A stretch of 64,000 nt of DNA, taken from positions 28,830,001 to 28,894,000 of the forward strand of contig OZ024747.1 in the NCBI GenBank assembly GCA_964016885.1. The letters are read 5' to 3'. Position 1 is the first letter of the stretch; every line of letters starts with the position of its first letter. Source of the stretch: Eledone cirrhosa (taxonomy: Eukaryota). A program made the position numbers and the translations under genes. Positions 11,133-45,823 of this stretch are shown one piece after another. The notes under the pieces are model-generated. The model saw only the letters and a list, made by a program, of their open reading frames with translations, had not been told where the DNA came from and did not search any database.

Positions 11133-11193
11133 TTTATCTGATGAGGACGTACTGTTGAAGTTAACTCAGTACCTCTGAAATATGTATAATAAA
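11133..11193 (+). ncRNA. Type I hammerhead ribozyme motif
   Basis: UUUAU-CUGAUGA-GGACGUACUG(loop)CAGUACCUCU-GAAA-U-AUGU-A-UA^AUAAA. Confidence 0.75.
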
Positions 11194-11372
11194 ATATACT
11201 TGATCACAAAAATATCTATTTAATATTAATAACTCCGGAAAACCATTTTTGTTGAGTGCTTCCAATCTATTCTAAAACTCATTTTTTGATTTATTCATTG
11301 AACCTTGTTTAACCTTTAAATACACACACATATATATATATATACATATACACACACAAACACATATATATA

Positions 11373-11531
11373 CAGTGAAATTCCGTTATAACGAAATTCG
11401 CGGGTATAAAAAAATTCGTTGTAACAAAAAGTTCTTTATAACGAGATCGACCGAAACACATCATATGTGTGATTGTGGATTGAAAAAAATTTCACTATAC
11501 CGAAAAATTCGTTATAATAGAATTTTACCTG
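11373..11531. mobile_element. Tc1/mariner-pogo (Tigger-like) MITE
   Basis: TA|CAGTGAAATTCCGTTATAACGAAATT ... AATTCGTTATAATAGAATTTTACCTG ends. Confidence 0.7.
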
Positions 11532-11536
11532 TGTAT

Positions 11537-11790
11537 ATCATCATCATCATCGTTTTACATCCGTTCTTCCACGCTAACATGGGTTAGATGGGTTGTCCTA
11601 TTGTGGGCAGTGTCCAGTCGGCTGACCTTGTCTTACTCATACAGGAACTGATTCTGGCTTGATTTCTACAGTTGGATGCTCTTCCTAACACCAACCTCAT
11701 TTACAGTGAGTGCTGGGTGCTTTTTTTCCCTAGCGCCTACATGTCCACTTTACAGTGGGAGGGAGTGGGGACATATTGTCTATATGCTTC
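11537..11790 (-). mobile_element. RTE-related 3' end. Similar short pieces at about 12705-12850, 20170-20230, 31098-31215, 45190-45440, 48190-48400 and 60138-60290
   Basis: (TCA)n followed by cgttttacatccgttcttccacgctaacatgggttag, the reverse complement of the RTE tail. Confidence 0.75.
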
Positions 11791-41536: not shown

Positions 41537-42479
41537 TTAAACAAATCTTACCATTTATCAAGGTATTTGGATGATTTGAAATTTGAAATGTTGAAATTCA
41601 AACACGGAATTGCTATAAATGGACATAGTGTTAGAGAATCAGGTAAAATATCCTTAGAAACAGAAAAAGTGGCTAGCAACCATTATAAAAAAATGAACTC
41701 TATATTTCTTGAATCCTGGCCAAGTGTGTTACCCTCTCTGTAGTGACTGCTGGACACTTATGTATGTTGCTAAGAGTATCTTTACAGATTCTTTAATGCT
41801 ATTATCATCTATAGTGATTCTGTGTTTGGATTTCAACATTTCAAAAAAATATATACAAGTTATATTCAAGAGGTTTTGAGATTTTTATCAGCAAGACTTT
41901 TATTTAACTCAGATCAACACAAAACTCTACTCTCTCTCAAAGTAGGATCCTCCAACTTCAATGTAGAACATTCAGGATGTGAGAGTGTTGCACCAGCACT
42001 GGACTGGTACTTTCTTTATCAACCCCAAAAGGATAAAAAGGAAAATGAATCTTAGCAGGATTTGAATTTAGAGTGTAGAGAACAAATACCATAGCACTTT
42101 TTCTCTGATGCTCTACCGACTCTGTAAAAGATATATTGCTGTGAGAACAGAAAATATGGCAGAGAAAAAGAAGAGCAACTAAGATGTAATTATTAATAGA
42201 TAACAATATTATGGGAAGTGATATAGAAACCTTGAAACAGCTTTGGTTGATTATAATGAAACTGTGATTATAAAGCAGGGAAAATGACCTTATAACACTT
42301 GTGATATGATTCATCATAGCTTGACTGTGGAACATTTAGATATGATAGGAATAGCAGCATAATATGAGATGGTATTAGATAAAGTAGGATGTGTTGGTGA
42401 AAAACAAAAATAATTTCTAGCGGATATTGAAGAAGTATTAAGATCAATGGCATAATATTCTAGAGTGATTGCTAGTCGC

Positions 42480-42720
42480 TTTTCCATTTGATAAACATGA
42501 TGCCATTGATATTGGTACTATGAGCAGTAAGGGATTGAGATGAGAGGCAGGTGGTATAAAATCAATCATATGTCTATGGATGATTTGAAGCTGTTTATAA
42601 AGAATAAAAATAGTTTCTTTAGTATAAAATATCTGTGACTTCAGTGGAAGATGTTAAAATGGAATTTGATATATAATAAATGTGGTATTTTAATAATGAA
42701 ATGAGGAAAATCTGTGGAAT
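42480..42720 (+). mobile_element. R4/Dong-like RT fragment
   Basis: INH..MDDLKLF and EDVKMEFDI..KC-like remnants. Confidence 0.5.
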
Positions 42721-42742
42721 ATAAAAGGATGGGGTTACAAAC

Positions 42743-42925
42743 TAATTGTTTCTACTTTAGGCACAAGGCCAGCAATTAACCAGTGCATTACTGGTACTTT
42801 ATTTTATCGACCCCGTAAGGATGAAAGGCAAAGTCAACCTCGGCAGGATTTGAACTCAGATCATAAAGGGACATAACTATGCTGGAAAGCATGGCGTCCG
42901 ACCCTCTACCGATACTCCCAATCCA
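42743..42925 (-). mobile_element. SINE family A
   Basis: Reverse complement of the family A consensus. Confidence 0.85.
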
Positions 42926-45823
42926 CTTGAAGGAGGGAAGCCAAGAGATCTATAAATAGTTAAACAGAAGAACAGAGTTAGATAAGATAAAGGAAACCAG
43001 CAAGAAGGAAATAACAGAAGACTTTAGCAGAAAGGTAAGAAATTGGTGTTGAAATCTAAACCGAATGAGGAAGTTGCATCTCTGGTCAATAATGCACATT
43101 GTCTTAAGGTAGAGTTGAGGCCATTTATATACAGTGAGGTGGGGGGATAGTGTTTTAATGTACATAATCTGAAAGGAAATTAAAGATCTGATTACTTTAG
43201 ATAAGGAAAAGACCCTTGGCTTCTGATGGAGTCTCAGACATGGCATGACTTGGGCATTTTAAACCTGGTGAAGTCCATCCCTCTCAAGGCTGATTTCTTT
43301 CAGTGAAGGAAGGAGAGAGTGAGTAAGTCAAAGTGATAAAAAGGAACAATCAACTTCAGTACCAGGCTATTACTGTATTTATTGACTTCAAATGGATGAA
43401 ACGCAAAGTTGAACTTAGCAGGATCTGAACTCAGAATGCAATAAGCTGGAACAAATACTGAAGCATTTAATATGATGTCCTAATAACTCTGCCAATTCAC
43501 TGCTTAATTTAGATTTTAAAAAAAATTTTTTAATTCCAATGACCATATAAGGAGAATTATATTTCAGAAATGGTATTTATAGGACTTATATATCTTGGAT
43601 AAAAAGAGATAAAATTAATTGGTTACAAAGAATTGAAGCAGAATGAGAAGGGGTTAATGGTTTAGTTGAGGAAGGAATAATAGTATCCATGATCCTTTTC
43701 AGGTGGCCTCTATGGTTGGTGGAAGTGGGAGGGAAGAATTTATCCTCTGACCAGGGACTAAATGGATTTAACAAAATGGACCCTACTAAATGAACTGAAG
43801 TCCCCTTTTTTTAAATGCTGAGGTATGATTTGAGGATATTTGGTGCCATTTCTATCTAGTTGAGCAACCACATAGAGCCTTCATCATTTATTCAAAATAG
43901 AATCAAGATAATTAGTAATGTTGAAATAAATCATATCACAACAGGTAAAACCTGAAATTGCCAATGTCATGTCTTTCGGTAAAGAATGTCTTGTAAGAAG
44001 TCACACACCTTTCACATACCTGTCACAAACTACTTAATATCAGAAGACTTATTAACGAGACAAAATACTTTTTTTTAATGTCCAATTGAAATTCATCCAT
44101 TTATAATGAAAAACACTGACTATGATTTTCAAATAATTATGAAAATAGCTAAGTTTTGCTGGATGCTCTTTCAAATGCCAATCATGGGCTTCCACACAGT
44201 CTCTTTCTACCAAATTACACTTAAAAGTTATTGGTCAATCAAGACTGTAGCAGAAACCATTTGGTTATGAAGCAAACTCCTTACACACACAGCCATGTTT
44301 ATATATTATTAAATATTCATTTTTTTTTTATCATTTAAATGTTGAAACATAAGAGTGATTATAAAGATTTCCAATTACAAATATTATATTTAGTTTTCAT
44401 TTAATTTTTAAAATCTTTTTTTTTTTAATTCAGACACTGTGTTTTTCTCTTTCCAAATCATTGACTAAAACCTTGGAAAACAGACATAAAATGATGAAGA
44501 CAACGATGATGGTGATGATGATGATAATGATGATGATGATGAGAAAGAGGATGACAGTGGTTGTGGTGGTAGGGATGTTGGTGGTGACCAATTCTTCCAG
44601 AACTTTCTATTTCCATTCCAGTCAATTCTATTGATGTAATTTTCTCCTCAGCAATCTCCATAAATAATTTGTTCTCTCTCCTACACCAGCCATTATCTTT
44701 AAACCATATCGCTTCAGCTTTCATTCCCTGGACATATTGGTCTTCCAACACCAATGTCTCTACAACAACACCTACACTTTCTTCACTTCCCACACTATCC
44801 ACACCTCCCACAATACCCACATTTCCCCTCCCTCACACCTTACAGTACCACGACTCCTACACCCCTGAACACTAATATCTCTACAACAATATTCTTGCTT
44901 TTCACAGTACCTACAACTCCCACACCTCCCAATACCAATATCTCTACAACAATACCCATATGTTTACATATAAAATGTTGATAAAATAAAGCACTGGGGT
45001 CAATTTAATTGACTTTCCTCTTTTCTCCAAATTGCTGACCTTGTGCCTAAATCAGAAACCATTATTATGAACGCTGGTAATGTTAAAAATGACAACACAC
45101 ATTTAACGCAGAAGTTTACTTATTTTCACCACCAATTATTAAGACAATTTAAACCCTAACCCTAACCCAAACCTAACACTAAAACTATTTATATGTCCAT
45201 CTTCCACGCTAGCATTGGTTAGACAGGTCCTATTTTGAGGCAAGTTGTGTCGGGTGACTGTGTCTCACTCATATAGAAGTGTTGCTAGCTGGTTTTCTAC
45301 GGCTGGATGCCCTTCCTAATGCCAATCACATTTACAGTGTGGATTGGATGCTTTTTGTCGTATCTTTTACACATCCACTTTACAGTATGGGCTGGGTGCT
45401 TTTTGCTGTATCTTTTACACGTCCACTTTACAGTGTGAGCAGGGGTTACAACAGCAGAAGTTCGATGAGCTTTTGATTCCAGAGTCGGGCCAGATCGATA
45501 TAGATCGAACCTTGAGCTGATCAATAGCGAAATGCACATCACCAATCAATAAACGTAATAAAGGCTTAATAAATTGTTCTTCTATTATTATATTACACTC
45601 TGTTGAGCTCTACACCTCGTTACTTTCGTGAACCTAAACACCGAATGCTCACCTGGGTGAACCAATAAATGTAATGAAGCAGGAACCATTTGTCCTTGTA
45701 TTATTATATTATATATATATATATATATATATATATAGGTATATTATATATATATATATATATATATAGGTATATGTGTATATTATATATATATATAAAT
45801 AAATACACATTCATACATATACA

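What the first reader, a model, noticed from the sequence alone, without database searches (positions are those of the whole stretch)
11145..45528. Recurrent C·C (Y·Y) mismatch at the 4th pair of stem II across otherwise different hammerheads
Seen, first pairs of stem II. 11.1 kb: G·U, G-C, A-U, C·C, G-C. 38.8 kb: U·U, A-U, G-C, C·C. 40.7 kb: U-A, G·U, G-C, C·C, A-U. 29.8 kb: A·A, G-C, U-A, C·A; the inverted partial copy at 30092-30133 supplies C, giving C·C. 45.5 kb: G-C, C-G, U-A, U·U. The 25.2 kb motif lacks it. Inference: a conserved internal-loop feature at the position where stem I-stem II tertiary contacts form, possibly defining an undescribed hammerhead subtype.
Basis: partly seen in the sequence, partly recalled or inferred. 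Interest (0 to 1): 0.7.

Follow-up and report, generated by a model that had tools for sequence, protein, structure and literature searches.

The report
Retrotransposon hammerheads keep one stem mismatch
These motifs are predicted self-cutting RNAs at the ends of a known kind of jumping gene, and over 100,000 copies in this animal genome keep one spot of a helix unpaired while the pairs around it change, likely because that spot acts as a hinge where two helices pack.

Summary
The quoted pairs are all in the sequence. The motifs are type I hammerheads in the end repeats of Penelope-like retrotransposons with Hydra-clade protein motifs; the 40.7-kb copy is a 95%-identical piece of an intact element. 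The mismatch is real genome-wide. In 155 spaced 10-kb samples, 62 of 105 long-stem copies are mismatched at step 4, against 12 and 7 at steps 3 and 5 (families 11 of 33 vs 13 of 139, p=0.001). In the largest class 71,620 of 80,815 copies are C·C and 995 are C-G or G-C. Neighbouring pairs change by double compensation. Corrections: the examples are not independent (three share one lineage; one origin is not rejected, p-AU 0.28). The rule is 'unpaired 5' pyrimidine': C·C, C·U, U·C, U·U and an amplified C·A subfamily. Many long-stem families, including the young 25.2-kb one, are paired. No tertiary partner was found and the canonical A·U1.7 contact is absent. Cleavage and function are untested. 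This scan noted the feature before on other DNA of this genome. It is a lineage-specific variant, not found in my paper searches.

The parts
11128..11198 (+). Type I hammerhead motif: core 11138-11144, stem II 11145-11176 with C·C at 11148/11173, palindromic stem III, predicted cut after 11188; 3' end of a Penelope-like element
   Evidence: 885 candidate copies; family ORF linked at L276
11053..11123 (-). Second copy of the same motif, head-to-head (C·C at 11103/11078); inverted repeat 11031-11122/11129-11220
25230..25295 (-). Hammerhead of a paired lineage: 10-bp stem II, A-U at step 4 (25275/25256), 9-nt stem III
   Evidence: ORF linked at L278
29717..29812 (-). Old hammerhead copy, C·A at 29792/29742; relatives mostly C·C with step 2 switching C-G/G-C; stem III closing pair broken in this copy
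30091..30133 (+). Inverted partial copy of the 29.8-kb motif (3' half of stem II and GAAA, no core), C at the 3' side of step 4
38764..38828 (-). Hammerhead, C·C at 38808/38789, same stem III and stem I as 11.1 kb; ends in (TA)n 23 nt after the predicted cut
40420..40892 (-). 473-nt end-repeat piece of an element with an intact 830-codon frame; hammerhead 40618-40776 with 116-nt stem II insert, C·C at 40754/40645, 10-bp stem I
45452..45550 (+). Hammerhead with decayed core, 60-nt stem II insert, U·U at 45472/45525, fixed in its family
60425..60528 (-).

Best explanation
The motifs are hammerhead folds in the end repeats of Penelope-like retrotransposons, and one large group of lineages keeps the fourth step of helix II unpaired, likely as a hinge at the place where helix II is predicted to pack against helix I. 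Shown: link to the element, fixed position of the mismatch, compensated neighbours, no amplified repaired variant among those listed. Inferred: selection acts on the transposing RNA; the short-stem ancestral type had C10.4-G11.4 and these lineages lost the G while extending the helix; the break would let a long helix II and an often long helix I sit side by side in a fold that is predicted to cleave as a dimer through palindromic stem III, perhaps with help from the element's protein. Shape rather than base identity is the likely constraint, since C·C, C·U, U·C, U·U and C·A all spread.
For: Position fixed at step 4 while the insert runs from 22 to 115 nt. Copies: 62 of 105 mismatched at step 4 (57 Y·Y) vs 6, 12, 7, 15 at steps 2, 3, 5, 6. 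Families, sampled loci only: 11 of 33 vs 13 of 139 (p=0.001); coarse 8 of 24 vs 11 of 94 (p=0.016). Genome: 71,620 C·C of 80,815, 387 C-G, 608 G-C, the listed repaired copies spread over many subfamilies; 123,316 Y·Y of 161,010 in the wider class, controls 4,512 and 25,612. Among 20 mismatch families step 3 takes four pair types, needing double transversions, where one transversion would repair step 4. Carriers' proteins are only 45-56% identical. Stem I has 7 or more contiguous pairs in 8 of 19 mismatch families vs 2 of 23 paired ones (lineage-confounded). In Craig 2021 File S2, 16 of 26 Hydra rows have C-G at this step and none an internal mismatch (by eye).
Against: 23 long-stem families are paired at step 4, and the paired 25.2-kb family is young, top copies 98-99% alike, so the break is not needed by long hammerheads in general. 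One origin is not rejected (p-AU 0.283), so family counts are not independent. No partner base or covarying stem I position was found. The 5' base is C in 16 of 20 mismatch families, which also fits base readout by a protein. No cleavage, structure or expression data. Cervera 2014 saw no tertiary effect in the one minimal hammerhead tested (supplement legend S6).
Confidence: 0.4

Rival explanations
1. The unpaired 5' pyrimidine is a recognition mark for the element's RT-endonuclease protein, which binds there and switches on cleavage or picks its template.
For: 5' base is C in 16 of 20 mismatch families and C in 16 of 26 published Hydra rows. The anole PLE hammerhead cleaves only with its protein (PMC11167929). 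No RNA partner found.
Against: U·U is fixed in the 45.5-kb family (3,765 candidates) and U·C occurs in its relatives. In the anole element the inferred protein site lies within the first 172 nt of the ORF and cleavage was not needed for insertion. Paired lineages transpose too.
Confidence: 0.25
2. The mismatch is a brake: with a loose first pair it leaves only two firm pairs next to the core, slowing cleavage so that uncut RNA survives to be copied.
For: Pairing step 4 in silico stabilises stem II by 3.8 to 5.8 kcal/mol in four motifs. The window's copies run 23-208 nt past the predicted cut site to a microsatellite, so they come from RNA uncut or religated there. Uncut RNA was the main template for the anole PLE.
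Against: A plain brake could sit at steps 2, 3 or 5, yet those are paired. Paired families also keep both sides of the site.
Confidence: 0.22
3. Frozen accident: one ancestor had the mismatch and it was inherited without function.
For: One origin not rejected; repair needs a transversion; paired lineages thrive.
Against: Neighbouring pairs made double transversions with compensation. Step 4 itself drifted among C·C, C·U, U·C, U·U and C·A without an amplified C-G, even in the C·A subfamily where one transition repairs it. Proteins diverged to about 45% identity.
Confidence: 0.13

Closest known systems
Hammerheads of Hydra-clade Penelope-like elements (Craig et al. 2021, PMC8557442; passages, section 11, File S1 Hydra sheet and File S2 read)
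   Same: Type I motif near the 3' end, loose or U·U first step, palindromic stem III, (TA)n insertion, DKT, RW(K/R), CxCX5C, CxxC and CxH protein motifs.
   Different: All 26 Hydra rows have stems of 3-8 pairs without an internal mismatch at step 4 (16 have C-G there; by eye). The one octopus entry is fully paired with a 9-nt stem III like the 25.2-kb type. The intact element here is a 6.67-kb unit, published ones are mostly under 3 kb.
Minimal hammerheads (min-HHR) of metazoan PLEs (Cervera and de la Pena 2014, PMC4209133; main text parts 1-2 of 4, supplement parts 1-2 of 3 read)
   Same: Core, longer helix II, no clear loop-loop contact, predicted dimeric cleavage, dispersed and inverted copies.
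   Different: Their consensus has one extra base after A9 and G10.1-C11.1; here step 1 is symmetric and G-C in only 11 of 105 copies. Of their 56 rows two show a mismatch at the fourth pair (U·U, C·A; by eye), not remarked on in the text I read.
Canonical type I hammerheads of retrozymes and Schistosoma repeats (PMC7229834 passages; contact as described in PMC11875169 passages)
   Same: Same core; helix II of four pairs ends at the step where the mismatch lies.
   Different: No short loop II ending in A, U1.7 is paired, not in short tandem repeats, no Rfam hammerhead match.
Protein-assisted hammerhead of the anole Poseidon PLE (PMC11167929, parts 1-2 of 4 read)
   Same: PLE end-repeat hammerhead; a model for conditional cleavage.
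   Different: Other clade; no step-4 mismatch mentioned in the parts read.

Membership tests
PLE minimal type I hammerhead | Core CUGANGA...GAAA with NUH site and open stem I | tested here: met
   Intact at 11.1 (both), 25.2, 38.8, 40.7 kb; decayed in the 29.8, 45.5 and 60.5-kb copies; covarying stems in a hand-picked alignment of 12
PLE minimal type I hammerhead | Short palindromic stem III (dimer-type) | tested here: met
   8-nt palindromic segment in 19 of 19 long-stem mismatch families; partly built into the descriptor
PLE minimal type I hammerhead | Extra base after A9 and conserved G10.1-C11.1 | tested here: not met
   Step 1 symmetric, G-C in 11 of 105, mismatched in 54 of 105; matches the Hydra rows instead
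PLE minimal type I hammerhead | Located in the end repeat of an RT plus GIY-YIG element | tested here: met
   Shown for 40.7 kb, 11.1 and 25.2 kb, 38.8-like relatives; no ORF link found for the 29.8 and 45.5-kb families
PLE minimal type I hammerhead | Self-cleavage | not testable with these tools
   No assay; no RNA run listed
Hydra-clade PLE | DKT, RWK-like, CxCX5C linker, CxxC and CxH near the end, C-terminal GIY-YIG | tested here: met
   Read by eye in the 830-residue frame against the definition; RWK reads RWR
Hydra-clade PLE | No CCHH finger in the endonuclease | tested here: inconclusive
   By eye no CxxC between the GIY and YIG halves, but two spaced cysteines are present in P0001
Hydra-clade PLE | Insertion into (TA)n | tested here: met
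   All 7 window copies checked end at a dinucleotide repeat, mostly (TA)n;
Hydra-clade PLE | Generally short, under 3 kb | tested here: not met
   Tandem unit 6.67 kb with about 4 kb untranslated; a typical, not strict, feature
Hydra-clade PLE | Placement in a tree with published Hydra proteins | not tested
   Reference proteins were not available as tool sequences; Pfam gave 0 hits for 4 proteins
Canonical type I hammerhead with loop-loop contact | Four-pair helix II capped by a loop whose last A meets an unpaired U1.7 | tested here: not met
   A at 11.5 in 1 of 19, unpaired U1.7 in 1 of 19 mismatch families; equating 11.5 with the last loop base is my inference
Rfam hammerhead families | Score against Rfam models | tested here: not met
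   0 hits at gathering score in the window; no hammerhead family up to E 10 in two sub-regions

The most novel reading that the evidence does not exclude
The step-4 mismatch is an undescribed helix I-helix II docking module that replaces the loop-loop contact in long-stem hammerheads and gives fast cleavage at low Mg2+, and it arose at least twice (the 40.7-kb lineage and the main lineage, perhaps also the U·U superfamily).
Probability: 0.15. Interest if true: 0.7.

Novelty: new variant of a known kind. Interest (0 to 1): 0.4.

Why it matters
What hammerheads do in Penelope-like elements is open: they cleave poorly, and Craig 2021 even suggests they may be passengers. A position outside the core that stays unpaired across more than 100,000 copies and about 50% protein divergence argues that the RNA fold is under selection during transposition. 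It gives a one-base test (C·C vs C-G) on an element with an intact frame. It also shows why descriptor and Rfam searches that demand a perfect helix II miss many of these motifs.

Tried and rejected
Rfam: no hammerhead hit (the miRNA-type hits are the inverted repeat and microsatellites). Pfam: 0 of 4 proteins. I first linked the ORF P0002 (L008/L162/L163) to the 11.1-kb family; one search showed it has its own end repeat, so labels in the tree were wrong and the tree was redone. Strict Y·Y rule: rejected by the C·A subfamily. 'Always an unpaired C' (earlier notes): fails for the U·U and U·C families. Watson-Crick or pseudoknot partner for C10.4: no conserved G within 25 nt either side. Independent origins: not shown. 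Sequencing runs: no RNA holder listed; contigs of three runs listed no change at the two step-4 places but are too fragmentary to use. Single-strand folding is weak for four of five short motifs (z -0.2 to -1.9), strong for 40.7 kb (z -6.8). The 45.5-kb energy used coordinates off by two and is not used. Papers not held: Lunse et al. on PLE hammerhead variants, Martick and Scott 2006, Arkhipova 2017. ORF links for the 45.5-kb family could not be pursued further.

Full report
Observation. Step 1 is the first base after CUGANGA against the last before GAAA. The window is G000:C7:28830001-28894000 of a 3.0-Gb genome. I did not identify the organism; earlier notes call it octopus-like.

What the motifs are. 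Each has the layout stem I, CUGANGA, stem II, GAAA, short palindromic stem III, NUH, stem I, and each of the 7 copies checked ends 23-208 nt later in a dinucleotide repeat. The 40.7-kb copy is a 473-nt, 95%-identical piece of a head-to-tail tandem (6.67-kb unit) with an intact 830-codon frame. The search with its endonuclease part listed 150 matches at 99-100% identity. The protein carries DKT, RWR, CxCX5C, a C-terminal GIY-YIG, CxxC and CxH, the marks that Craig et al. 2021 give for the Hydra clade; no tree with published Hydra proteins was made. The 11.1-kb and 25.2-kb families were tied to related frames by collinear flanks or position. No frame was found for the 29.8 and 45.5-kb families. 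Rfam gave no hammerhead match.

Is step 4 special? I took 155 evenly spaced 10-kb stretches (hand-chosen coordinates, mostly the large contigs; one further request failed) and used a descriptor that ignores stem II: 73 hits in the first 99 vs 1, 3, 0 in shuffles, 140 in 155 vs 2, 4, 3 with a wider core. Of 105 copies with an insert of 20 nt or more, mismatches by step 1-7 were 54, 6, 12, 62, 7, 15, 13; 57 of the 62 were Y·Y. At family level I dropped families under 60% paired and counted a step only if both neighbours paired: step 4 was mismatched in 11 of 33 vs 13 of 139 at steps 2, 3, 5-8 (p=0.001); coarse clustering gave 8 of 24 vs 11 of 94 (p=0.016). With targeted loci added it was 18 of 41 vs 14 of 165 (enriched for the window's families). 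These p values treat related families as independent. Genome-wide, for stem III UAURUAUA: 80,815 matches, 71,620 C·C, 387 C-G, 608 G-C, 2,993 C·A. For the wider 8-nt stem III class, 123,316 of 161,010 are Y·Y (controls 4,512 and 25,612). Step 1 is also loose, a known trait: U10.1·U11.1 in Perreault 2011 (passages) and in most Hydra rows.

Selection or inheritance? Among 20 mismatch families step 2 takes five pair types, step 3 four and step 6 five, including swaps that need two transversions (one search counts a hand-picked alignment of 12, circular for step 4). One transversion would repair C·C, yet the first 100 listed C-G and G-C copies are spread over many subfamilies (by eye). A tree of 18 linked frames (query-anchored; unlinked and short rows left out) puts the 10 mismatch carriers in two groups with an unresolved base, two changes; one clade is not rejected, p-AU 0.283. 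So I cannot claim convergence. The state was kept across proteins 45-56% identical. An earlier tree had two wrong labels, found.

What is conserved. Not strictly Y·Y: about 69 of the first 100 C·A matches are one amplified subfamily with an 8-pair stem, and 7 a second (by eye). Not strictly C: the 45.5-kb superfamily gave 20 U·U (mostly targeted loci), 6 U·C, 2 C·C, 2 G·U and 2 likely false hits among 32 matches. The common rule is a 5' pyrimidine, mostly C, facing anything but its partner. Against a general need: 23 long-stem families are paired, and the 25.2-kb family is young.

Mechanism. Step 4 is where the canonical four-pair helix II ends and meets helix I (Cervera 2014). The known contact, last loop A with unpaired U1.7 (passages of PMC11875169), is absent: A at 11.5 in 1 of 19 and unpaired U1.7 in 1 of 19 families; no conserved G lies within 25 nt. 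Fixed position with loose identity points to shape. Mismatch families more often have a long stem I (7 or more pairs in 8 of 19 vs 2 of 23; confounded by descent). I therefore favour a hinge that lets two long helices pack (0.40) over protein readout (0.25), a brake (0.22) and neutral carry-over (0.13). All four are inferences; nothing here shows cleavage. PLE hammerheads cleave slowly and probably as dimers, and one needs its protein.

Literature. In Craig 2021 File S2 none of 26 Hydra rows has an internal mismatch at step 4 and 16 have C-G. In Cervera 2014 Fig. S3 two of 56 rows have a fourth-pair mismatch. Both counts are by eye. Eight searches found no description; the 2026 retrozyme preprint was read in part 1 of 5 only. 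Lunse et al., the most relevant survey of PLE hammerhead variants, was not held, and figures are not searchable, so prior description is not excluded.

Earlier notes. The scan reported this feature at least four times on other DNA of this genome. They gave me the Hydra-clade lead, which I checked by motifs. My counts agree on scale; the U·U, U·C and C·A lineages narrow their 'unpaired C' and 'pyrimidine pair' wordings.

Verdict. A real, probably selected, lineage-specific variant of a known retrotransposon hammerhead, with an easy test and no demonstrated function. Interest 0.40.

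Noticed in passing
L162, L163, L170, L190, L047 and others: Another Hydra-type family ends in a hammerhead-like motif with A at core position 4 (CAGAAGA), a short stem II and a possible five-pair monomeric stem III; the variant core is shared by all copies shown.
   Followed up: partly
G000, first rows: An amplified subfamily (roughly 2,000 copies by extrapolation) with an 8-pair stem II, tetraloop and C·A at step 4; the most compact natural construct for kinetics.
   Followed up: partly
L160-L161 (G000:C1:183738000-183757999): Tandem array of a very young Penelope-like family with intact 830-codon frames and about 4 kb of untranslated sequence; 150 listed matches at 99-100% identity, likely recently active.
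   Followed up: partly
window 24500+, 35044+, 39985+, 47473+: Further short-stem hammerhead-like motifs of other families; 39985 and 47473 have relatives in the sampled loci.
   Followed up: partly
window 60495-60678: 85-nt inverted repeat overlapping the decayed U·C hammerhead at 60518-, the head-to-head arrangement typical of these elements.
   Followed up: no
L008:1320-1340 (minus strand): One element sits directly against an 11.1-kb-family end repeat that stops inside stem II, two bases after the unpaired C; single case, probably nesting.
   Followed up: partly
window 51450-52520, 48616-48983, 6025-6324, 14230-14465: Minisatellite arrays with periods of about 37, 28, 42-44 and 28 nt.
   Followed up: no
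window 1-1911 +: Broken frame with reverse-transcriptase motifs of a LINE-like element; 200 N at 25658-25857.
   Followed up: no
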